In this document: one piece after another, positions 1,964 through 17,661 of the stretch
How the letters are laid out: each line of letters starts with the position of its first letter
Numbering within the stretch: the stretch's first letter is position 1
Origin: Coriobacteriaceae bacterium
GTDB taxonomy: Bacteria; Actinomycetota; Coriobacteriia; Coriobacteriales; Coriobacteriaceae
Assembly: GCA_036718335.1 (NCBI GenBank)
Contig: DAIMBN010000003.1
Location: 1,862 to 65,861 of the forward strand
DNA length: 64,000 nucleotides
Reading direction: 5' to 3'
The notes under the pieces: generated by a model
What the model was told of the DNA's origin: nothing
Databases searched by the model: none
Seen by the model: only the letters and a program-made list of their open reading frames with translations
Translations under genes and position numbers: made by a program

Positions 1964-2203
1964 ATGTACCCGTATATGACATTCGAAGACGGTACCGAGG
2001 TCGTTCATTCTGACCTGATAGCAGATGGGGATATCGAAAAGGTTATCGTGCATTTTGAACGACCGACGGCAGAGGGCTTCGACTCCGCTCGTTGTGAGTT
2101 GCCTTCCTGTTCGTGGACTGACTGGGAAGGGCATTTTACTCAAAGTGAAAAACGAGCTTTCGAAGAGTGTTTGAGCAAATCATTTAGATTAGTTCGAGTT
2201 TAG
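1964..2203 (+). CDS. Small hypothetical protein at the left edge of the AT-rich island
   Basis: ORF 1922-2203. SD-like GAGGTGG at 1949-1955 favours GTG 1961 or ATG 1964 as the start. Translation MYPYMTFEDGTEVVHSDLIADGDIEKVIVHFERP...; no family recognised. Confidence 0.45.
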   Translation: MYPYMTFEDGTEVVHSDLIADGDIEKVIVHFERPTAEGFDSARCELPSCSWTDWEGHFTQSEKRAFEECLSKSFRLVRV

Positions 2204-2282
2204 TTCGAATATAGAAGCCGAATGCGATGACCTAAAGCGTATGCATTTTTAGTATTAGATGCGTATGAAATGGAGGATGTGA

Positions 2283-2564
2283 ATGGATGAGCTAATAGAC
2301 TTTAAAAAACGATTTCTCAAGAATGGCGAGCTGGTTTCAATTCCAAAAAAGGAAAGCTATAAAAGAATCATGCTGCTATGGGCCGTCTCTTTCTTTGAAT
2401 TAAATACAAGTTATACGGAGCTTCAGGTTAATCGTGTACTGTCACAGCTCTATCCTGATTATGCCGTGTTGAGGCGGTACTTGGTTGATTATGGATTCCT
2501 ATTAAGGGATGAGCGAGGCCTGAAATACGAGGTTAATCGTGATGTTCACGGTATTGAGAGCTAG
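2283..2564 (+). CDS. DUF2087-like small protein (domain often attached to ArsR-type regulators)
   Basis: GGAGGA sits 5 nt upstream of the ATG. The pattern ...YTELQVNRVLSQLYPDYAVLRRYLVDYGFLLRDERGLKY resembles the DUF2087 signature. The gene overlaps the start of the following MFS gene, so the two are probably translationally coupled. Confidence 0.5.
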   Translation: MDELIDFKKRFLKNGELVSIPKKESYKRIMLLWAVSFFELNTSYTELQVNRVLSQLYPDYAVLRRYLVDYGFLLRDERGLKYEVNRDVHGIES

Positions 2565-3726
2565 CCGTCCGGTTCGAGTCCTATATATTGCTAGAGGGAT
2601 AAGCGAAATAGGCAATTGGTGTGCGAATATTGCTTTGCCAATGCTGATTTACGAGGTAACTCACGATGTTTCTGCAACTGCTTTGATGGTCTGCTGCAGA
2701 TTTGCCCCCTCTCTGTTTTCAGTTGCGCTCGCGCAGCTGCCTCAGAAGATGGGTATCGGGACACTGCAGGCCATGAGATTGGCAGACTTAATTCGCGCGG
2801 GATTATTCGTTTGCTATATTTTTGTTGATAGTAAATGGAGTATGTTTGCTATTACGTGCGCGGTATCGCTTTGCCGAACGGTTGAAATGCCCTGCTTTTA
2901 CTCGTTGTTAAGAGCCAATACGAATAGTATCAATCGCGACGTAATTAATAATTCGTTTGGGTTTCTGCAGAATTTGATGATGGTTCTGGGGCCAGTTGCC
3001 GGCGGTTTTGTTGTCGCTCAATTTGGGGCGGAGGCTGTTCTTGCATTAGACGCGCTTTCTTTTGCCGCGTCGTTCTGGTTGCTGCGAGATGTTCCGTCGG
3101 TTATCGAGGTTAATGATAAAGAGGGGATAAGCAAAAATGAAAAAAACAGGACTGCATTTAGTGATCTTAGCGCGAAGCACTTGGCAATTGGTTTCCTATT
3201 AATCGATATTTCTAGTGGCGTGGCATTCGGCTCTCTGAATTCTCTTTTGCCAGCTATTGCGCAATTGCAATTTGACTCGTCATCGATACAATACGGATTC
3301 CTTCAGAGTAGTCTTACAATCGGACTGTTGTTCGGAAATACAATATATGGTCGTTTAATTAGTGGTTCCGATTGCATTAAATCATATTGTTTTGTGACGT
3401 ATCTTGCGCTCGGTGCGTATCTGGCGTTTGGCTATCGCTATGCGTCTGGAATATCGTTTATTTTCCTTTTTATCGTCGGTGCCGGAAACGCCATTCAAGA
3501 TGTGCTTCTCATAACATCGCTGCAGGATTTGGCGAGAGACGAATCTGAATCGATAAGCCTGTTTTCAATTAGGGAGTCTTTGCAATCGGTTGCTGTTGTT
3601 ATTTCAACACTCCTTGTTTCGCTGTTCACGAGCATCGCGATGTTCTCAATTCTCGTTACAGGACTTGGTGTATTTTCAATTATGATGGTAGTTGTGTTTC
3701 AATTGAATTATTTGCGAAAGATGTGA
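2539..3726 (+). CDS. MFS transporter (putative exporter of the island)
   Basis: 395-aa ORF that is hydrophobic throughout with about 12 predicted TM segments. The start is GTG 2539 or ATG 2542. AT-rich codon usage matches the island. Confidence 0.8.
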   Translation: MMFTVLRASRPVRVLYIARGISEIGNWCANIALPMLIYEVTHDVSATALMVCCRFAPSLFSVALAQLPQKMGIGTLQAMRLADLIRAGLFVCYIFVDSKWSMFAITCAVSLCRTVEMPCFYSLLRANTNSINRDVINNSFGFLQNLMMVLGPVAGGFVVAQFGAEAVLALDALSFAASFWLLRDVPSVIEVNDKEGISKNEKNRTAFSDLSAKHLAIGFLLIDISSGVAFGSLNSLLPAIAQLQFDSSSIQYGFLQSSLTIGLLFGNTIYGRLISGSDCIKSYCFVTYLALGAYLAFGYRYASGISFIFLFIVGAGNAIQDVLLITSLQDLARDESESISLFSIRESLQSVAVVISTLLVSLFTSIAMFSILVTGLGVFSIMMVVVFQLNYLRKM

Positions 3727-3733
3727 CGTTGAT

Positions 3734-4105
3734 ATGCCTAAAACGCTTTTAGTATTTCCCCCAGGATGGAGTCCAGTGGGGCCGTATCTTGCCTTGCCTG
3801 TTTTGAAGTCATATCTTCAAGAGGTTGAACAATATAAAGTTGACATCGTTGACTTAAACGTGGAATTTTACGATGACCTCCTATCTTTTAGACATGTCGA
3901 AGAGTGCTGTAAAAGGTATCGGGAATCAAAGGATTCGTTTAGTTCGAATGTTCAATTAACAATCGAGTTGATACAAAAGTCAGCACTTAATGTTGACGAG
4001 GCAAAAGATATTTTCAGATCGAAGAGATACTTTAATCTAAAAGAAAGACAATATGCTGAAAACATTTTTAGAAATGCACTCTATATCATAAATCACGTCT
4101 CATAG
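3734..4105 (+). CDS. N-terminal fragment of a B12-binding-domain radical SAM protein, ended by TAG TGA
   Basis: MPKTLLVFPPGWSPVGPYLALPVLKSYLQEVEQYKVDIVDLN resembles the first beta-alpha unit of the cobalamin-binding domain of class B radical SAM enzymes. It is in the same reading frame as ORF 4169-6055. Confidence 0.6.
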   Translation: MPKTLLVFPPGWSPVGPYLALPVLKSYLQEVEQYKVDIVDLNVEFYDDLLSFRHVEECCKRYRESKDSFSSNVQLTIELIQKSALNVDEAKDIFRSKRYFNLKERQYAENIFRNALYIINHVS

Positions 4106-4168
4106 TGAGTTAAATACACGTTCAACTCCATAGATCTGCCCTATGATTATTATTCGACACCAGAAATA

Positions 4169-6055
4169 ATGAAATCGCTTGCGGATACCTTGCATAATCC
4201 GTTTATTTCCTTCTATGAAACTGCCTTTCTTAAGCGTATTCAGAGGGAAAAAATCGAGTTTATTGGGATTTCGGTGAGCGGCTGTTTCCAATTGATTTCT
4301 GCAGTTACGTTAGCGAAACTGATTAAAGAAGAATGTCCATCTGTTAAACACGTCTCATTGGGCGGCAATTACATTACTCGTTTAGCAGATGACTGCATGA
4401 AAGAATGGCATCCCTTTTTTGAATACACTGATTCGATAATGATGTATGACGGCGAAGAGCCGCTTGCACGTCTTCTTGAGGCTCTTGACTCTGGTGATGA
4501 CAATCTCGACTGTGTTCCAAACCTTTGCCATGCTAAAGGTGGGAAGATATATAAAAACCATCGGATTGAGCAAACATTTATCAACGATACGGTTCCCGAT
4601 TTCGATGGCTTCGCCCTTTCTAAATACTTCATGCCTGAGTTAATATTGCCGGTTTATTCCTCTAGGCAGTGTTTTAATCATTGCGCCTTCTGCACCATTC
4701 CCGGTGCTACCGGTGGTTGTTACCGAAAGATGCCTATATCGAGAGTATTTGAAATAATGTGTCGGTTAAATGAAAAATACGGCACGAGAGTTTTCTCTTT
4801 TGTGGATGAAACATTCGAAGGCAAAAGAATGGAGCAACTCGCGGATGAAATAAACGCATCGGGAAAAACGTTTTTCTGGCATGGAGAAACGAGGTTCTCT
4901 CCAACCCTAAGTACAGACGTTTTCAACAAGATATACCAAAGTGGATGTAGGCAGATTCAGTTTGGCCTCGAGTCATACAACCAAAGAGTTCTTGATCTAA
5001 TGAAGAAGAACACGAGAGTTGATTGGATTGATCGCAATATCCATGATTGTCTCAATGCGGGTATTCCTGTTCATCTATTCTTTATGATTGGCTTTCCGAC
5101 CGAAACTAAAGAAGAGGCTCTGAACACCTTAGCTTATACAGAGAATGTTTTGAATTATTCAAAACAGGTATGTGGTGTTCCATATTCCACGAGAGGATTT
5201 ACGAATTTTGGTCTCGTTATGGGGTCGGATGTTTGGAATCATCCCGATAAGTATGGTGTCTCTGTAATGCCGAAGTCCCAATATGAGGATTTGCGCCTCG
5301 AAGTGGATTATGTTTCAGGCACTGGTTTAACTTTAAATGAAGCAAAATCCTTATCTGATGAGCATCATATTGATTTTTATATGCAAGAGGTCATAAACGG
5401 TAGCGACACAATTGACTTGCCCCAGCGGCTTCATATTTCAGAGGTGACCTGGATCCTAGATTCTATTCACGCTGTCAGGTATAAGGGACATTTGACCAAA
5501 GTAAAGCGACGGCTAACTAGTCTAAATCCAGCTGATCGAATCTGGCTGGATTCCAAGACCTCTGTCGTGCTCGTTGAGCCATTTGCCTACTTCTATAATT
5601 CTGAATACCATCATGTCTATGCTGTTTCCCAGTTGGTATACCTTAAGTTGGCCCGTTTATTGGAGGCCGATTGTAGCATTTCTCTTATCCTTGATCAAGG
5701 CGACCTCGAGCTGACAAGGACGATAGAAGAACTGTTGCATTATGGATTGCTGAATACAAATATCGATGCCGATTATGTAATGCACGATAATGGTTTTCAA
5801 TTGGTTAAAAGTTCGTTTGTGAAAGAAGTCGGACGCTCAAAAGAGGGGTTAAGAGTACTGCTGAGTTGTGCCACCCATAGAATGTGTGCGGTTAATGATT
5901 TTTCGTTCGCTTTGCTTTCGTTGTTTGAAAAGCCGATTACTAAGAACGAGGTGCGCGACATTTTGAAAAAAGAGGGACTATCGGCAAACGAGGAGCAATT
6001 AAACAAGTTGGTTGATAATTGCATGAAAGCAGATATACTACAGTTGATTAGATAG
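4169..6055 (+). CDS. B12-binding-domain radical SAM protein (core plus C-terminal PqqD-like peptide-recognition domains)
   Basis: CxxxCxxC (CFNHCAFC) is encoded at 4670-4693. Upstream, ...IEFIGISVSGCFQLISAVTLAKLIKEECPSVKHVSLGGNYITRL matches the rest of a B12-binding domain. The C-terminal ~170 aa contain two segments with PqqD/RRE-like character (ELTRTIEELLHYGLL; ITKNEVRDILKKEGLSANEEQLNKLVDNCMKADILQLI). No SD precedes ATG 4169. Confidence 0.8.
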   Translation: MKSLADTLHNPFISFYETAFLKRIQREKIEFIGISVSGCFQLISAVTLAKLIKEECPSVKHVSLGGNYITRLADDCMKEWHPFFEYTDSIMMYDGEEPLARLLEALDSGDDNLDCVPNLCHAKGGKIYKNHRIEQTFINDTVPDFDGFALSKYFMPELILPVYSSRQCFNHCAFCTIPGATGGCYRKMPISRVFEIMCRLNEKYGTRVFSFVDETFEGKRMEQLADEINASGKTFFWHGETRFSPTLSTDVFNKIYQSGCRQIQFGLESYNQRVLDLMKKNTRVDWIDRNIHDCLNAGIPVHLFFMIGFPTETKEEALNTLAYTENVLNYSKQVCGVPYSTRGFTNFGLVMGSDVWNHPDKYGVSVMPKSQYEDLRLEVDYVSGTGLTLNEAKSLSDEHHIDFYMQEVINGSDTIDLPQRLHISEVTWILDSIHAVRYKGHLTKVKRRLTSLNPADRIWLDSKTSVVLVEPFAYFYNSEYHHVYAVSQLVYLKLARLLEADCSISLILDQGDLELTRTIEELLHYGLLNTNIDADYVMHDNGFQLVKSSFVKEVGRSKEGLRVLLSCATHRMCAVNDFSFALLSLFEKPITKNEVRDILKKEGLSANEEQLNKLVDNCMKADILQLIR

Positions 6056-6068
6056 AGGAGGTTTCTGC

Positions 6069-6179
6069 ATGGACGTTATTAATAAAGATCTCTTGGAGCA
6101 ACTGAAAGAGTTTCAGGAAGAGGGCGTCGTGGTAGAAGTGTTCGACTTTGAGGACTACATGGATAAATTCTGCCATTAG
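6069..6179 (+). CDS. 36-aa acidic peptide, candidate RiPP precursor (not in ORF track)
   Basis: ATG at 6069 is preceded by AGAGGAGG with 7-nt spacing and lies 13 nt after the radical SAM stop. Translation MDVINKDLLEQLKEFQEEGVVVEVFDFEDYMDKFCH, stop TAG at 6177-6179, followed by an intrinsic terminator. Confidence 0.55.
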   Translation: MDVINKDLLEQLKEFQEEGVVVEVFDFEDYMDKFCH

Positions 6180-6204
6180 TTTCGGAATTTACTCGCCTCG
6201 CTTA

Positions 6205-6238
6205 AAGGAGAAGTCGATTATCGATTTCTCCTTTTTTA
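6205..6238 (+). terminator. Intrinsic terminator closing the island operon
   Basis: Stem GGAGAAGTCGAT / ATCGATTTCTCC followed by TTTTTT. Confidence 0.7.
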
Positions 6239-6367
6239 ATTAAAGATATTATTGAAATACATGCTCCTAGCACAGGTTGGCCTCTCAGTAAACTGGGAGG
6301 TTGCTTTGGCTAGTTAGAGATATGTGAACGTCCGTTAGACTGAATCTCAGGGTAGAAGGGGCCTCCA

Positions 6368-8368
6368 GTGTCCAGATCAACTAGGCAATGCTGCGTTTCG
6401 GCTAATAAGAACGATGGCTTTTTGCGTGTGGCGGCGGCTTCGCCGCGGATTCGCGTTGCCGATGTCGAGGGCAATGCCGAGGTTGCGCTGGCGGCTGTTC
6501 GCGAGGCTGCCGAGCGCGGCGTTCGCGCGCTGGTGCTGCCCGAGCTCAACTTGTGCGGCTATACCGCGGCCGACCTGTTCCATAATCGCACACTGCTGCA
6601 TGCCTGCGAGGCTGCTTTGGTGCATATCCTCGATGAGACTCGTGAGCTGCCGATTGTCTTTACCATCGGTCTTCCCGTTGCGGTTGCCGAGAATATCTAC
6701 AACTGCGCCGCCGTGTGCTGCGCGGGCGAGCTTTTGGGCCTCACGGCCAAGAAGTATCTGCCCAACTATGGCGAGTTCTACGAGCGCCGCTGGTTTGCTC
6801 CGGCGCCCGCAGATCCTGTGTGGGTCGAGTTTGCCGGTCAGGGTCCGGTTCCGCTGGGTTCGGAGCTTGTCTACCGCTGCTGTGACGAGGGTGCCGAGGA
6901 TATGGTGCTGGGCGTTGAGGTCTGCGAGGACCTGTGGGTGCCGGCGCCCCCTTCGACCGAGATGGCGCTTGCCGGTGCGACGGTGATCCTCAACCCGTCG
7001 GCCTCGGACGAGATTATCGGCAAGGCAGATTACCGACGCAGCCTCATATCCAACCAGAGCGCGCGCCTGTACTGTGCCTATGCCTATGCAGATGCGAGCG
7101 AGGGCGAGTCCACGACCGACATGGTCTTTGCGGGCGAGAACCTCGTCTACGAAAACGGATCTAAGCTCGCCGCCACGAAGCTTCTTACCTGCGATATAGC
7201 GGTGGCCGATGTCGATCTTGACCGTCTGGTTGCCGAGCGCCGCCGCTCGACGACGTGGACGCGCGCGGACGATGCGCCGGAGGCCACGACCGTTGAGTTT
7301 TCGTTTGAGGGCGTGCTGACGGACGAACCTGTCCTGCGCGATGCACTCGGCATCGACCGTGTCTTCCCCCGTGCGCCCTTTGTGCCGGCCGACCACGGTG
7401 ATCTGGCCGAGCGCTGCGAGACTATTCTCAATCTGCAGACTGCTGGCCTCAAGACCCGCCTTGCCCACACAGGTACCAAGGCTGCGGTTATCGGCCTTTC
7501 GGGTGGCTTGGACTCCACGCTGGCACTGCTTGTGACCGTGCGTGCCTTCGATGCGCTGGGGCTGCCGCGCACGGGTATCACGGCGGTCTCCATGCCAGGT
7601 TTTGGCACGACGCATCGCACCAAGTCCAATGCCGAGTCGCTTGCCCGCGACTTGGGTGTGAGCTTCCGCGAGGTTTCGATCCACGCGGCTGTGGAGCAGC
7701 ACTTCAAGGACATTGAGCACGATCCGACCGTGCAGGACGTGACCTACGAGAACAGCCAGGCCCGCGAGCGTACGCAGATTCTGATGGATCTTGCCAACCA
7801 GGCTGGCGGTTTTGTCATCGGCACGGGCGACCTGTCGGAGCTGGCGCTCGGCTGGGCTACCTATAACGGCGACCACATGAGCATGTACGCCGTCAACGCG
7901 AGCGTGCCCAAGACGCTCGTGCGTCACTTGGTGCGCTATGCGGCTGATGTCTTTGGCGGGAGTATTGCCGAGGTCTTGCTCGACATCCTCGATACGCCGG
8001 TATCTCCCGAGCTTCTGCCGCCCACGGGCGACGGCGAGATTGCGCAGAAGACCGAGGATTTGGTGGGCCCGTACGAGCTGCACGACTACTTCCTCTACTA
8101 CCTGCTGCGTTTTGGCTTTGAGCCGGGCAAGATCTACCGCATGGCGCTCAAGAGCTTCGAGGGCGTCTACGACGCCAAGACCGTCCACACGTGGCTACGT
8201 ACGTTCTACCGTCGCTTCTTTGCCCAGCAGTTTAAGCGCAGCTGCCTGCCCGATGGTCCCAAGGTGGGCTCGGTGACGCTCAGCCCGCGCGGCGATTGGC
8301 GTATGCCGAGTGACGCTAGCTCGCGTCTGTGGCTTGCGCAGATCGACGCGCTCAATCCAGTTGACTAA
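6368..8368 (+). CDS. nadE: Glutamine-dependent NAD+ synthetase (CN-hydrolase domain plus NAD synthase domain)
   Basis: 666-aa ORF. N-terminal nitrilase-type domain (FLRVAAASPRIRVADVEGN..., EVCEDLW). C-terminal NAD synthase P-loop GLSGGLDST. The GTG start at 6368 is uncertain. Confidence 0.9.
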   Translation: MSRSTRQCCVSANKNDGFLRVAAASPRIRVADVEGNAEVALAAVREAAERGVRALVLPELNLCGYTAADLFHNRTLLHACEAALVHILDETRELPIVFTIGLPVAVAENIYNCAAVCCAGELLGLTAKKYLPNYGEFYERRWFAPAPADPVWVEFAGQGPVPLGSELVYRCCDEGAEDMVLGVEVCEDLWVPAPPSTEMALAGATVILNPSASDEIIGKADYRRSLISNQSARLYCAYAYADASEGESTTDMVFAGENLVYENGSKLAATKLLTCDIAVADVDLDRLVAERRRSTTWTRADDAPEATTVEFSFEGVLTDEPVLRDALGIDRVFPRAPFVPADHGDLAERCETILNLQTAGLKTRLAHTGTKAAVIGLSGGLDSTLALLVTVRAFDALGLPRTGITAVSMPGFGTTHRTKSNAESLARDLGVSFREVSIHAAVEQHFKDIEHDPTVQDVTYENSQARERTQILMDLANQAGGFVIGTGDLSELALGWATYNGDHMSMYAVNASVPKTLVRHLVRYAADVFGGSIAEVLLDILDTPVSPELLPPTGDGEIAQKTEDLVGPYELHDYFLYYLLRFGFEPGKIYRMALKSFEGVYDAKTVHTWLRTFYRRFFAQQFKRSCLPDGPKVGSVTLSPRGDWRMPSDASSRLWLAQIDALNPVD

Positions 8369-8435
8369 GGTTGGCTAAATTGAACCAATATGGGGGTTGC
8401 AAGCGTTACACTTTTGCAATCTGATGGCCCGTATC

Positions 8436-8468
8436 GCGCGGCGCTCTTGTCGGAGCGCCGCGTTTTTC
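8436..8468 (+). terminator. Intrinsic terminator after nadE
   Basis: Stem GCGCGGCGCTC / GAGCGCCGCG followed by TTTTT. Confidence 0.6.
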
Positions 8469-8486
8469 ATATCGAAAGGTGGCACC

Positions 8487-9650
8487 ATGCAGGCATCGCA
8501 GCGTCTCGACCGCTTTGGCGCGGAGGTCTTCGCCTCGCTCAACAACAAGCTTCTCGCGCTGAAGGCTCAGGGCAAGACCATTTACAACATGAGCGTGGGC
8601 ACGCCCGACTTTAAGCCGTACGACCATGTGGTCGAGGCGCTCACGCAAGCAGCCCAAGATCCCGAGATGTGGAAGTATGCCCTGCGTGACCTGCCCGAAC
8701 TCAAGCAGGCCGTGTGCGATTACTATGAGCGTCGCTTTGGCGTTTCGGGCATTACGCCGTCCATGGTGCAGTCGTGCAACGGCACGCAGGAGGGCGTGGG
8801 CCATTTGGGCCTGGCCCTGCTCGATCCGGGCGACACTATTTTGGTTCCCGATCCGTGCTACCCGGTCTTTGAGGCGGGTGCCAAGATCGCCGATGCCAAG
8901 CTCGAATACTATCCGCTGGTTGCCGAGCATAATTACCTGCCCTATGTGGCGGGTATCGATCCCGAGGTGGCCGATCGTGCCAAGTATATGATCGTGTCGC
9001 TGCCCGCCAACCCGGTGGGCTCGGTGGGCACGCCCGAGGTCTACGAGGAGATCATCGCTTTCGCCCGCGAGCACGACCTGCTGATCGTCCATGACAACGC
9101 ATACTCCGACATCGTGTTCGACGGCGAGCCGGGCGGCAGCTTCTTGCAGTATCCCGGTGCGCTTGAGGTGGGCGTGGAGTTCTTCTCGCTCTCCAAGTCG
9201 TTTAACGTCACCGGTGCCCGCATCGGCTTTTTGGTCGGTCGCGAGGATGTGGTCTCGGCCTTTGCCAAGCTGCGCGGCCAGATCGACTTTGGCATGTTCT
9301 TCCCGATCCAGAAGGCCGCCATCGCCTGCCTGAACGGTCCGCGCGATGAGGTCGAGGCGCAGCGTCTGAAGTACCAGGAGCGCCGCGATGCCCTGTGCGA
9401 CGGTCTTGAGGGCCTGGGCTGGGAGCGCCCCAACGCGCATGGCTCTATGTTTGTGTGGGCCAAGCTTCCCGGTGGCCGCACCGATTCCATGGCGTTTTGC
9501 GAGGAGCTCATGGAGAAGGCCGGCGTTGTGGTGACGCCGGGTGCGAGCTTTGGTCCTTCGGGCGAGGGGCACGTGCGCATGGCGCTGGTCCTGCCGCCCG
9601 ACCAGATCGCTTTGGCTGTCGAGGCCATTCGCGAGGCGGGCTTGTATTAG
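8487..9650 (+). CDS. Class I/II PLP-dependent aminotransferase (possibly the DAP-pathway aminotransferase)
   Basis: Start ATG 8487 (MQASQRLDRFGAEVF...) with upstream GAAAGGTGG. PLP-lysine motif SLSKSFNVTGARIGF. The DAP role is inferred only from the nearby lysine genes. Confidence 0.8.
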   Translation: MQASQRLDRFGAEVFASLNNKLLALKAQGKTIYNMSVGTPDFKPYDHVVEALTQAAQDPEMWKYALRDLPELKQAVCDYYERRFGVSGITPSMVQSCNGTQEGVGHLGLALLDPGDTILVPDPCYPVFEAGAKIADAKLEYYPLVAEHNYLPYVAGIDPEVADRAKYMIVSLPANPVGSVGTPEVYEEIIAFAREHDLLIVHDNAYSDIVFDGEPGGSFLQYPGALEVGVEFFSLSKSFNVTGARIGFLVGREDVVSAFAKLRGQIDFGMFFPIQKAAIACLNGPRDEVEAQRLKYQERRDALCDGLEGLGWERPNAHGSMFVWAKLPGGRTDSMAFCEELMEKAGVVVTPGASFGPSGEGHVRMALVLPPDQIALAVEAIREAGLY

Positions 9651-17339: not shown

Positions 17340-17515
17340 TGGACCCAATGTCCGGATAGCGCTCCCGCATTGCTGCAGACAGTCCTGCGGGTGTTTCCCG
17401 CAGGCCCACCAGGTTGTTCGTGCCTGAAAAACCCAGTTCGGCGGGTTTCGCCTCCCCGCGGGGTCAAAGCCTGCCGGCTCGCCCGCGGCTCTTCGTGCCC
17501 GCGCCTCTATCAAGT
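17340..17515 (-). promoter_or_regulatory. Lysine riboswitch (L-box) in the leader of the lysA-dapA-dapB-dapH operon
   Basis: The minus-strand leader reads ...GATAGAGGCGCGGGCACGAAGAGCCGCGGGCGAGCCGGCAGGC...GGGGAGGCGAAACCCGCCGAACTGGG...GGACTGTCTGCAGCAATGCGGGAGCGCTATCC. This matches L-box hallmarks: AGAGGCGC at the 5' end, GGGGAG...GCCGAA, and ACTGTC...GGAGCGCTATC at the 3' end. Confidence 0.8.
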
Positions 17516-17661
17516 GGTAACGACCCTACCACGTTGCACTTTACCAAACAAGAGTATTCGTATATAACGTTTAAAAAATGCAGCAATATGCTGGAAACAT
17601 GTGTGCCACAATCCTGTATCACAATAAGTTGCAACAGATGTGCCTTACGAAGGGATTCTCT

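What the first reader, a model, noticed from the sequence alone, without database searches (positions are those of the whole stretch)
6069..6179. Untracked 36-aa acidic peptide ORF directly behind a B12-radical SAM enzyme: candidate new RiPP system (operon 2283-6179)
Thirteen nt after the radical SAM stop, a strong SD (AGAGGAGG) precedes an ORF encoding MDVINKDLLEQLKEFQEEGVVVEVFDFEDYMDKFCH. It has a helical, acidic leader-like N-half and a C-terminal FDFEDYMDKFCH segment containing the only Cys and His. An intrinsic terminator follows. The upstream enzyme has a cobalamin-binding-type N-terminus and a CX3CX2C radical SAM core (4670-4693). Its C-terminus is not Cys-rich and SPASM-like. Instead it has two PqqD-like winged-helix segments, the usual RiPP recognition elements. 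An MFS exporter and a DUF2087-like putative regulator complete a compact operon. I do not recognise the peptide as any described RiPP family (not sactipeptide, ranthipeptide, mycofactocin, PQQ or streptide-like). A class B radical SAM could methylate or crosslink the core.
Basis: partly seen in the sequence, partly recalled or inferred. Interest (0 to 1): 0.85.

Follow-up and report, generated by a model that had tools for sequence, protein, structure and literature searches.

The report
Undescribed RiPP cluster with broken enzyme
The 36-residue ORF is very likely the precursor peptide of an undescribed family of enzyme-modified peptides found in gut, oral and dairy bacteria, but in this Collinsella genome two stop codons have knocked out the modifying enzyme.

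Summary
ORF 6069-6179 (MDVINKDLLEQLKEFQEEGVVVEVFDFEDYMDKFCH) starts 13 nt after the radical SAM stop. It has a GGAGG Shine-Dalgarno site and a 14-bp terminator.

The RiPP interpretation is also well supported.
- A small ORF flanks the rSAM gene in all 12 divergent homologous loci (Lachnospiraceae, Dorea, Desulfosporosinus, Lactococcus, Fusobacterium, Paraclostridium, Streptomyces, others). All have a helical acidic N-half and a [KQ][YF] dyad near the C-terminus.
- Between two lineages whose enzymes are 60% identical, the 14-residue core is identical, with 5 synonymous and 0 non-synonymous changes.
- The enzyme models as a class B (B12-type) radical SAM. It has a C-terminal tandem PqqD-like recognition domain and no SPASM domain.
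- In Lactococcus the cluster adjoins a CbrT B12 transporter component.
- No NCBIfam model or searchable paper covers the family.

- The enzyme gene is 3734-6055, not 4169-6055.
- It is a pseudogene here, with tandem stops TAG TGA at 4103-4108. The same allele occurs in five other assemblies.
- The gene is recurrently inactivated across Collinsella.
- The conserved residues are Lys-Phe, not Cys/His.

The most likely chemistry is C-methylation at the K-F/Y dyad, as ApyD makes beta-methyltyrosine. This is inferred, not shown.

The parts
2283..2564 (+). DUF2087 protein (93 aa), a putative cluster modulator or regulator
   Evidence: Pfam PF09860, 72 bits. Homologous clusters carry DUF2087 fused to ArsR- or LuxR-type HTH domains. 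The DUF2087 protein BtmL modulates precursor-gene expression in the bottromycin cluster (PMC7113386).
2539..3726 (+). MFS transporter (395 aa), putative exporter
   Evidence: Pfam MFS_1 and MFS_3. An MFS gene is adjacent in all the divergent homologous loci examined.
3734..6055 (+). Class B-type radical SAM maturase gene (773 codons). It is a pseudogene in this window.
   Evidence: One reading frame runs from ATG 3734. The intact allele P0001 reads HVSYGVKYTF where the window reads HVS**VKYTF. The AF2 model has pLDDT 88.7, and Foldseek top hits are MgmA, TsrM, OxsB, TokK and CysS.
4103..4108 (+). Tandem in-frame stops TAG TGA (intact alleles read TAT GGA, Tyr-Gly)
   Evidence: The same 24-mer occurs in five independent assemblies, L180-L184.
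4670..4693 (+). CxxxCxxC radical SAM [4Fe-4S] motif (CFNHCAFC)
   Evidence: The cysteines are invariant or nearly invariant in the 24-sequence alignment. Pfam Radical_SAM, 63-65 bits.
5537..5740 (+). First RRE-like beta3-alpha3 module
   Evidence: DSSP of the AF2 models. Foldseek aligns both modules to ThcOx over 205 columns.
5798..6049 (+). Second RRE-like (PqqD-like) module
   Evidence: Foldseek hits to TigE, TbiB1, lasso B1, PbtF RRE and CteB. A profile of this region retrieves ~90-aa stand-alone proteins, 9 of 10 of which pass Pfam's PqqD cut-off.
6054..6061 (+). Shine-Dalgarno site AGAGGAGG
   Evidence: Read directly from the sequence. The equivalent GGAGG is present in L082 and L088.
6069..6179 (+). 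Precursor peptide gene (36 aa). Leader is roughly residues 1-20. The core is at most residues 21-36; only residues 23-36 (EVFDFEDYMDKFCH) are shown conserved, and they include the conserved Lys33-Phe34.
6204..6240 (+). Intrinsic terminator: 14-bp stem, 3-nt loop and T-run

Best explanation
Bases 2283-6240 are a four-gene, horizontally acquired low-GC cluster for a ribosomally made, enzyme-modified peptide (RiPP).

Proposed mechanism:
- The 36-aa product of 6069-6179 is the precursor.
- Its helical acidic N-half (LLEQLKE...) acts as the leader. The tandem PqqD-like recognition domain at the enzyme's C-terminus binds it.
- This places the peptide's C-terminal end, with the family-conserved [KQ][YF] dyad (Lys33-Phe34 here), in the active site of a cobalamin-type (class B) radical SAM domain.
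- The most likely reaction is methylation of an unactivated carbon at that dyad, best guess C-beta of the aromatic residue. The precedents are ApyD (beta-methyl-Tyr on a penultimate Tyr) and BotRMT1 (beta-methyl-Phe).
- The product would then be trimmed by an unlinked protease and exported by the MFS pump. The DUF2087 protein would tune expression.

In this particular genome the enzyme gene carries two tandem stop codons, so the pathway is predicted to be dead. The peptide, if made, would stay unmodified.

What is shown: the gene anatomy, the conservation pattern, the predicted folds, and the pseudogene state.
What is inferred: leader binding, cobalamin use, the site and type of modification, export, and biological role.

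Sub-probabilities: precursor/maturase pair about 0.85; methylation as the chemistry about 0.5; the aromatic C-beta as the site about 0.3.
For: 1. Conserved neighbourhood. All 12 divergent homolog loci examined have a small ORF abutting the rSAM gene (29-37 residues as read in most; 50 in Streptomyces), and all have an adjacent MFS gene. The loci are L082, L179, Lachnospiraceae, L149, Desulfosporosinus, L. lactis, L175, Dorea, F. nucleatum, the P. ghonii plasmid, L096 and Streptomyces.

2. Peptide similarity. Eight of the peptides were aligned and align end to end. All 15 listed carry [KQ][YF] 1-2 residues from the C-terminus in most, 3-4 in two, and 9 in Streptomyces. A random peptide of the same composition has this dyad within its last 6 residues with probability 0.059.

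3. Purifying selection on the core. Window and L082 enzymes are 60% identical, MFS 41% and DUF2087 42%. The core EVFDFEDYMDKFCH is 14/14 identical, with 5 synonymous and 0 non-synonymous differences, and similarity ends at the stop codon.

4. ORF integrity. The ORF is intact in 142 of 142 Collinsella loci.

5. Enzyme fold. Foldseek matches class B radical SAM enzymes at E of 1e-13. The strongest NCBIfam similarities are RiPP C-methyltransferase TIGR03975, PhpK and ApyD.

6. Recognition domain. The tandem RRE is supported by fold and by profile homology to PqqD. Two homologs pass PqqD directly at E of 7.5e-5.

7. Cobalamin link. In L. lactis the cluster is followed by DUF4430 and a homolog of the B12 ECF S-component CbrT (6FNP, E 1.5e-21).

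8. Precedent. ApyD is an RRE-containing B12-rSAM that beta-methylates the penultimate Tyr of its precursor (PMC11117315).

9. Tyr/Phe and Lys/Gln interchange in the dyad. This argues against chemistry that needs the phenol OH or the lysine amine.

10. Pseudogene state.
Against: - No experimental data exist for any member. Translation and modification of the peptide are not shown.
- No NCBIfam model reaches its cut-off (110 against 282 bits for TIGR03975; 84 against 750 for ApyD), so function cannot be transferred by orthology.
- The Pfam B12-binding match is sub-threshold. One good structural match, AprD4, is, from my memory, a class-B-fold enzyme that works without cobalamin.
- No protease is encoded in the Collinsella cluster.
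- The whole 14-residue core, not only K-F, is frozen in the Coriobacteriia lineages. A single methylation does not obviously explain that.
- B12-rSAMs also catalyse C-C crosslinks, for example PbsB (PMC12257519).
- The enzyme is broken in this genome and in a large share of Collinsella contigs. The cluster may therefore be losing its function in this host.
Confidence: 0.72

Rival explanations
1. The precursor/maturase pair is the same, but the class B radical SAM does not methylate. It would form a carbon-carbon or carbon-heteroatom crosslink, or carry out another radical rearrangement, involving the conserved aromatic residue. The product would be a small C-terminal macrocycle.
For: - B12-rSAM PbsB forms a biaryl C-C link in biphenomycin-like peptides (PMC12257519).
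- The Collinsella core has four aromatic residues (F25, F27, Y30, F34), and the Lachnospiraceae cores have two Tyr.
- The full 14-residue core is invariant across lineages whose enzymes share only 60% identity. That suits a structured, crosslinked product.
Against: - L. lactis, L175, F. nucleatum, P. ghonii, L096 and Streptomyces cores have only one aromatic residue near the C-terminus, with 1-3 residues after it in three of them. That leaves little room for the usual i/i+2 or biaryl rings.
- Lys/Gln and Tyr/Phe interchange removes the usual heteroatom partners.
- The best NCBIfam similarities are to methyltransferases.
Confidence: 0.2
2. The peptide is a disposable scaffold. After radical chemistry on the C-terminal Lys/Gln-Tyr/Phe unit, a small molecule (signal, cofactor or antimetabolite) is cut off and exported by the MFS pump. 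PQQ, mycofactocin and pearlin-type products are made this way.
For: - The conserved part across phyla is only a dyad close to the C-terminus.
- MFS_3/EntS-like pumps typically move small molecules.
- Clusters sit under signalling-type regulators: Rgg in L. lactis, LytTR response regulator in Lachnospiraceae, and a histidine kinase/response regulator pair in Dorea.
- L096 adds a LanB-type enzyme and an MNIO, enzymes known from scaffold-peptide pathways.
Against: - No peptidase or ligase is encoded in the compact Collinsella, L. lactis or Fusobacterium clusters.
- In Coriobacteriia 14 core residues are frozen, far more than a dipeptide-derived product would need.
- The enzyme lacks the SPASM domain of PqqE and MftC.
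Confidence: 0.1
3. This is not a RiPP. The small ORF would be a regulatory leader or a non-functional reading frame. The radical SAM enzyme would act on a small-molecule substrate handled by the MFS transporter.
For: - Many class B radical SAM enzymes act on small molecules (OxsB, TokK, CysS, AprD4 among the structural matches).
- The enzyme can be lost in Collinsella while the small ORF stays intact.
Against: - The synonymous-only divergence in the core (5 S, 0 N) shows selection on the encoded amino acids.
- The small ORF is conserved across four phyla.
- The enzyme carries tandem peptide-recognition (PqqD-like) modules that have no role with a small-molecule substrate.
- There is no Rfam hit or attenuator-like feature.
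Confidence: 0.04

Closest known systems
ApyD / aminopyruvatide pathway (Burkholderia thailandensis; PMC11117315)
   Same: An RRE-containing cobalamin-type radical SAM enzyme acts on a short precursor. It modifies an aromatic residue next to the C-terminus (the penultimate Tyr becomes beta-methyl-Tyr). It is the closest mechanistic precedent.
   Different: - Only 84-97 bits to the ApyD model against a cut-off of 750.
- The apy clusters are defined by an MNIO plus a P450 and a methyltransferase, and by a YLYD core.
- Here there is a single enzyme, a different precursor family, a C-terminal tandem RRE and an MFS pump.
Bottromycin cluster (BotRMT1-3/BtmB,F,J; BtmL; BtmA)
   Same: It combines class B radical SAM C-methyltransferases (one of which beta-methylates Phe), a DUF2087 modulator (BtmL) and an MFS exporter in a RiPP cluster.
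   Different: Bottromycin needs YcaO enzymes, a follower peptide and many other enzymes. Its precursor is unrelated. No orthology to the RMTs was tested here.
TIGR03975 rSAM_ocin_1 (PoyB/PoyC-type RiPP C-methyltransferases of proteusins)
   Same: It is the best-scoring curated family for the B12 plus radical SAM core. These are RiPP-modifying class B enzymes.
   Different: The score is 110 bits against a cut-off of 282, and the match covers only the core. The precursors there are long NHLP/Nif11 leader peptides, and those enzymes methylate many sites.
PbsB (biphenomycin-like peptides; PMC12257519)
   Same: It is a B12-rSAM in a RiPP cluster that also has an MFS transporter, and it acts on aromatic side chains.
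   Different: It needs prior MNIO ortho-hydroxylation and crosslinks two aromatic residues in an FRF motif. The precursor family is different.
Rgg-controlled RaS-RiPPs of streptococci (streptide, tryglysin and others; PMC9389541)
   Same: The layout is a regulator, a radical SAM enzyme, a short precursor and a transporter. The L. lactis member of the present family sits directly downstream of an rgg gene.
   Different: The review of streptococcal RaS-RiPPs describes no B12-type member of those families. From my memory, those enzymes are SPASM-type or lack an auxiliary domain. The precursor motifs are different.

Membership tests
RiPP biosynthetic cluster (generic definition) | A short precursor gene lies next to the modifying enzyme and is conserved with it | tested here: met
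   A small ORF abuts the rSAM gene in 12 of 12 divergent loci and in all Collinsella loci.
RiPP biosynthetic cluster (generic definition) | Bipartite peptide: a variable leader and a conserved core | tested here: met
   Between the window and L082 the leader is 6/16 identical and the core 14/14, with 5 synonymous and 0 non-synonymous changes. A [KQ][YF] dyad is shared across phyla.
RiPP biosynthetic cluster (generic definition) | A RiPP recognition element (PqqD-like winged helix) is present | tested here: met
   The AF2 C-terminal model has pLDDT 91.9, and Foldseek matches TigE, ThcOx, TbiB1, PbtF-RRE and CteB. The domain profile retrieves stand-alone PqqD proteins.
RiPP biosynthetic cluster (generic definition) | The peptide is actually post-translationally modified | not testable with these tools
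   This needs expression and mass spectrometry.
Class B (cobalamin-dependent) radical SAM enzymes | CxxxCxxC motif and a radical SAM TIM-barrel core | tested here: met
   CFNHCAFC at 4670-4693. Pfam Radical_SAM, 63-65 bits against a cut-off of 29.5.
Class B (cobalamin-dependent) radical SAM enzymes | N-terminal Rossmann-like cobalamin-binding domain | tested here: inconclusive
   Pfam B12-binding scores 14-19.5 bits, below the cut-off of 32.1, and only 5 of 24 homologs match at E<0.01. The predicted fold does align with TsrM, OxsB, TokK, MgmA and CysS.
Class B (cobalamin-dependent) radical SAM enzymes | Binds and uses cobalamin | not testable with these tools
   The only evidence is indirect: CbrT (a B12 ECF S-component) and DUF4430 genes follow the L. 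lactis cluster.
TIGR03975 rSAM_ocin_1, NF050148 ApyD and TIGR04479 PhpK (curated NCBIfam families) | Whole-protein score above the curated cut-off | tested here: not met
   110 against 282 bits, 84 against 750 bits and 106 against 600 bits. The same holds for four other family members.
SPASM/twitch radical SAM peptide maturases (sactipeptides, ranthipeptides, streptide, PQQ, mycofactocin) | Cys-rich C-terminal auxiliary-cluster domain | tested here: not met
   No SPASM Pfam hit appears in 24 homologs. The C-terminal 194 residues fold as two RRE modules and have no invariant column, so no conserved Cys.

The most novel reading that the evidence does not exclude
The family installs a post-translational modification not yet seen on peptides, at a Lys/Gln-Tyr/Phe dyad. 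This would be a new crosslink or rearrangement rather than a simple methyl group. The product would be a secreted signal or antimicrobial shared by abundant human gut (Collinsella, Dorea, Lachnospiraceae), oral (Fusobacterium nucleatum) and dairy (Lactococcus lactis) bacteria. The frequent loss of the enzyme in Collinsella, with the peptide gene always retained, would then reflect social 'cheating' or a second, enzyme-independent role of the peptide.
Probability: 0.2. Interest if true: 0.8.

Novelty: new variant of a known kind. Interest (0 to 1): 0.62.

Why it matters
The kind of system is well known: a radical SAM enzyme with a recognition domain modifying a small leader-core peptide. This precursor family and this enzyme architecture (a class B radical SAM with a C-terminal tandem PqqD-like domain) appear in no curated model and in no paper I could search.

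The family occurs in very common bacteria of the human gut and mouth and in dairy starter species. Its product could therefore be a widespread microbiome signal or antimicrobial.

The clusters are minimal: one enzyme, one peptide, one pump. That makes heterologous reconstitution straightforward, and the conserved K/Q-Y/F dyad gives a precise site to look at.

The population data add a second question. The enzyme is repeatedly destroyed in Collinsella while the peptide gene is never hit.

Tried and rejected
- **Genome scan.** I used protein-by-protein contig look-ups for that instead.
- **Metagenome scan.** I led with a Desulfosporosinus query to dilute Collinsella. The result was still about 90% Collinsella and added only two new peptide variants. 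It did give a less biased census of gene inactivation.
- **Peptide alignment search.** I repeated it with a 44-aa first sequence.
- **Literature.** Searches for the peptide core strings, for DUF2087 plus radical SAM, for Collinsella plus RiPP, and for Rgg plus B12 plus Lactococcus found no description of this family.
- **Island boundaries.** I looked for flanking direct or inverted repeats. Only weak, chance-level matches appeared, and there is no nadE-fragment duplication in the window itself.
- **DUF4430.** The L. lactis DUF4430 protein has no PDB sequence match. Its link to cobalamin binding rests on my memory of InterPro only.
- **Phase variation rejected.** I considered that the frameshifts near the 5' end reflect phase variation. 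The tracts are short (C5, A7) and the genome sample was selected on an alignment that tolerates upstream shifts. I therefore report them only as hotspots.
- **Sequencing error rejected.** I considered that the double stop is a sequencing error. The identical allele is in five independent assemblies.
- **Antisense ORF rejected.** I considered the antisense ORF 6048-6176 (-). The synonymous-only pattern is in the + frame.

Full report
**1. The observation**

The window carries the ORF exactly as described. ATG 6069 to TAG 6179 encodes MDVINKDLLEQLKEFQEEGVVVEVFDFEDYMDKFCH.
- The upstream reading frame stops at 6053-6055, so 13 nt separate the two.
- AGAGGAGG lies at 6054-6061.
- A 14-pair hairpin followed by a T-run lies at 6204-6234.
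- Pfam confirms DUF2087 (2283-2564) and an MFS transporter (2539-3726). It also finds a Radical_SAM domain whose CxxxCxxC motif is at 4670-4693.

One important correction concerns the enzyme gene. The 628-codon ORF 4169-6055 is only the tail of a 773-codon gene that starts at ATG 3734. The same frame is interrupted by two adjacent stop codons, TAG TGA, at 4103-4108. Intact relatives read Tyr-Gly (TAT GGA) there. The double stop is not a sequencing error, because the same 24-mer is present in five independent public assemblies. In this genome the enzyme is a pseudogene.

**2. Host and setting**

Eighty genomes carrying the gene at 99-100% protein identity are all Collinsella (C. aerofaciens group, Coriobacteriaceae).

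The cluster is a ~42% GC island in a ~60% GC chromosome. It lies just upstream of nadE and occupies the same site in all loci.

Among these genomes the island genes are 99.2-99.3% identical in DNA, while the flanking genes are 91.5-93.6% identical. The island has therefore spread or swept recently within the group. More diverged copies exist in other high-GC genomes (L082, enzyme 60% identical; L179, 68%), again as low-GC islands.

**3. Is the small ORF a real gene tied to the enzyme?**

I looked up contigs for twelve divergent homologs of the enzyme (33-68% identity).
- In every case a small ORF abuts the enzyme gene. It lies downstream in eleven and upstream in Streptomyces.
- An MFS gene is adjacent in every case.
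- The loci are L082, L179, Lachnospiraceae 54-53, L149, Desulfosporosinus acidiphilus, Lactococcus lactis, L175, Dorea, Fusobacterium nucleatum, a Paraclostridium ghonii plasmid, L096 and Streptomyces.

Eight of the peptides were aligned and align end to end. They share a helical acidic N-half (consensus xKExLxxLKE), then a variable stretch, then a C-terminal [KQ][YF] dyad. Examples of the C-termini are DKFCH, MKYAN, TQYV, TKYC, TQYSP, TKYA, TQYCLK, TKYTSPE and SKYALLQDGADN. The dyad is followed by 1-2 residues in most, 3-4 in two, and 9 in Streptomyces. A random peptide of the same composition shows such a dyad in its last six residues with probability about 0.06.

The strongest single result is the comparison of the window with L082.
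- The enzymes are 60% identical, the MFS proteins 41% and the DUF2087 proteins 42%.
- The last 14 residues of the peptide are identical, with five synonymous and no non-synonymous nucleotide differences.
- Similarity stops at the stop codon.

That is selection on the encoded amino acids. In addition, the ORF is unbroken in all 142 Collinsella loci where it is covered.

**4. The enzyme**

An AlphaFold2 model built on 24 homologs is confident (pLDDT 88.7, pTM 0.89). Foldseek against the PDB gives class B radical SAM enzymes as top hits: MgmA, TsrM, OxsB, AprD4, TokK and CysS, at E of about 1e-13. Sequence evidence for the cobalamin domain itself is weak, since Pfam B12-binding is below its cut-off.

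An independent hint of real cobalamin use comes from L. lactis. There the cluster is followed by a DUF4430 lipoprotein and a membrane protein that matches the CbrT chain of the ECF-CbrT vitamin B12 transporter (6FNP) at E 1.5e-21 (PMC5997447).

The C-terminal ~190 residues contain no conserved cysteine, and there is no SPASM hit.
- Modelled alone (pLDDT 91.9), they form two beta3-alpha3 modules.
- Their best PDB matches are almost all RiPP recognition elements: TigE, ThcOx (itself a tandem RRE, aligned over both modules), TbiB1 with its leader peptide, TglHI, MibB, lasso B1, PbtF-RRE, CteB and MccB.
- A profile of this domain was searched against 1.84 billion representative proteins. It finds only 19 clusters at E<=1e-10, so the architecture is rare.
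- Below that it finds ~90-residue stand-alone proteins, nine of ten of which pass Pfam's PqqD threshold.

**5. How it most likely works**

*Shown:* a leader-core peptide family co-inherited with an enzyme that joins a radical SAM catalytic core to peptide-recognition modules, plus an exporter.

*Inferred:*
- The leader docks on the tandem RRE.
- The C-terminal dyad enters the active site.
- The enzyme methylates an unactivated carbon there.

I favour methylation (about 0.5) for three reasons.
- The nearest curated families are C- and P-methyltransferases (TIGR03975, PhpK, ApyD).
- Tyr/Phe and Lys/Gln interchange in the dyad. This excludes chemistry that needs the phenol or the amine and leaves C-beta/C-gamma or ring carbons.
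- There are precise precedents. ApyD is an RRE-containing B12-rSAM that converts the penultimate Tyr of its precursor to beta-methyltyrosine (PMC11117315). BotRMT1 beta-methylates Phe in bottromycin, and that cluster also contains a DUF2087 modulator and an MFS pump.

A crosslink, as made by PbsB (PMC12257519), remains possible (about 0.2). So does a scaffold-peptide route to a small molecule (about 0.1).

The regulators differ by lineage:
- DUF2087 alone, or fused to ArsR or LuxR HTH domains
- Rgg in L. lactis
- a LytTR response regulator in Lachnospiraceae
- a histidine kinase/response regulator pair in Dorea

This fits a secreted signal or antimicrobial.

**6. State of the system in Collinsella**

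The enzyme gene is repeatedly and independently destroyed.

| Gene | 81 genomes (chosen for a full-length match, so biased towards intact) | Metagenome contigs |
|---|---|---|
| rSAM | 17 broken: 8 with nonsense mutations (7 distinct sites), 9 frameshifts | 39 of 67 broken: 24 frameshifts, 3 nonsense, 12 interrupted |
| MFS | 1 of 81 | 5 of 67 |
| DUF2087 | 0 of 80 | 5 of 66 |
| Peptide | 0 of 81 | 0 of 61 |

- Of the 12 interrupted metagenome copies, only L130 was read through; it carries an IS30-like element near the 3' end.
- Frameshift hotspots are a C5 tract (3758-3762) and an A7 tract (4247-4253).
- At the enzyme's per-base loss rate, about 2.6 hits would be expected in the peptide ORF. 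Zero is suggestive but not significant.

The window's TAG TGA allele is one more such event. The cluster is thus either decaying in this host or under selection for loss of the costly enzyme.

**7. Comparison with what is known**

No NCBIfam model (release of June 2026) reaches its cut-off for the enzyme or matches any of the peptides. Public sources name them 'B12-binding domain-containing radical SAM protein' and 'hypothetical protein'. Searches of the full-text library for the core sequences and for combinations of the cluster's features found no description. Subscription-only papers are not covered, so prior description cannot be fully excluded.

I class it as a new variant of a known kind: a new RiPP family within radical SAM-modified peptides.

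**8. Verdict**

The RiPP interpretation is supported by comparative genomics and structure prediction. The chemistry is unknown.

The copy in this window is inactivated. The lead is concrete and easy to test, but it is one of many uncharacterised radical SAM peptide clusters. Interest is 0.62.

Noticed in passing
window 2000-6400 (flanks 1-2000 and 6400-9000): The cluster is a ~42% GC island in a ~60% GC Collinsella chromosome, just upstream of nadE. Across 81 Collinsella genomes the island genes are 99.2-99.3% identical in DNA while the flanks are 91.5-93.6% identical. This suggests a recent sweep or recombinational spread of the island.
   Followed up: partly
window 3734-6055; loci L001-L081 and L099-L178: The radical SAM gene is independently inactivated many times in Collinsella. 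The events are nonsense mutations at 7 distinct sites in the genomes plus more in metagenome contigs, frameshift hotspots at a C5 tract (3758-3762) and an A7 tract (4247-4253), and interrupted copies. The peptide ORF is never broken and the MFS gene rarely is.
   Followed up: yes
L130 4750-6380 (insertion point corresponds to window ~5975-5990): An IS30-like transposase element (420-aa ORF, high GC) is inserted near the 3' end of the radical SAM gene in L130. Several other metagenome contigs break off at or near the same point.
   Followed up: partly
L088 4042-4902 and 8766-9681 (Lactococcus lactis): The L. lactis member of the family sits directly downstream of an rgg regulator gene. It is followed by a DUF4430 lipoprotein and a homolog of CbrT, the vitamin B12 ECF transporter S-component (6FNP, E 1.5e-21). 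So a B12-uptake module is linked to the B12-type enzyme.
   Followed up: partly
L096 6426-10448: In one metagenomic homolog cluster the [KQ]Y-type peptide (…NSTKYTSPE) is followed by a full-length LanB-type dehydratase and an MNIO (MbnB/TglH family) gene. This looks like a more elaborate pathway built on the same enzyme-peptide pair.
   Followed up: no
L179 2600-2806: In a diverged Coriobacteriia relative, a 68-aa duplicate of the nadE N-terminus (CN_hydrolase residues 1-42) lies upstream of the DUF2087 gene. This looks like a scar of the island's insertion at the 5' end of nadE. The window has an unrelated 79-aa ORF (1964-2203) at that place.
   Followed up: partly
window 17349-17517 (-): A lysine riboswitch (Rfam RF00168, 79.7 bits) is the only Rfam match in the window.
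   Followed up: no
L062 (peptide P0158): One Collinsella genome carries a peptide variant with five clustered core substitutions (VFDFEDYMDKFCH becomes ELDYEDNKHKFCH). It keeps the reading frame and the KFCH end.
   Followed up: no
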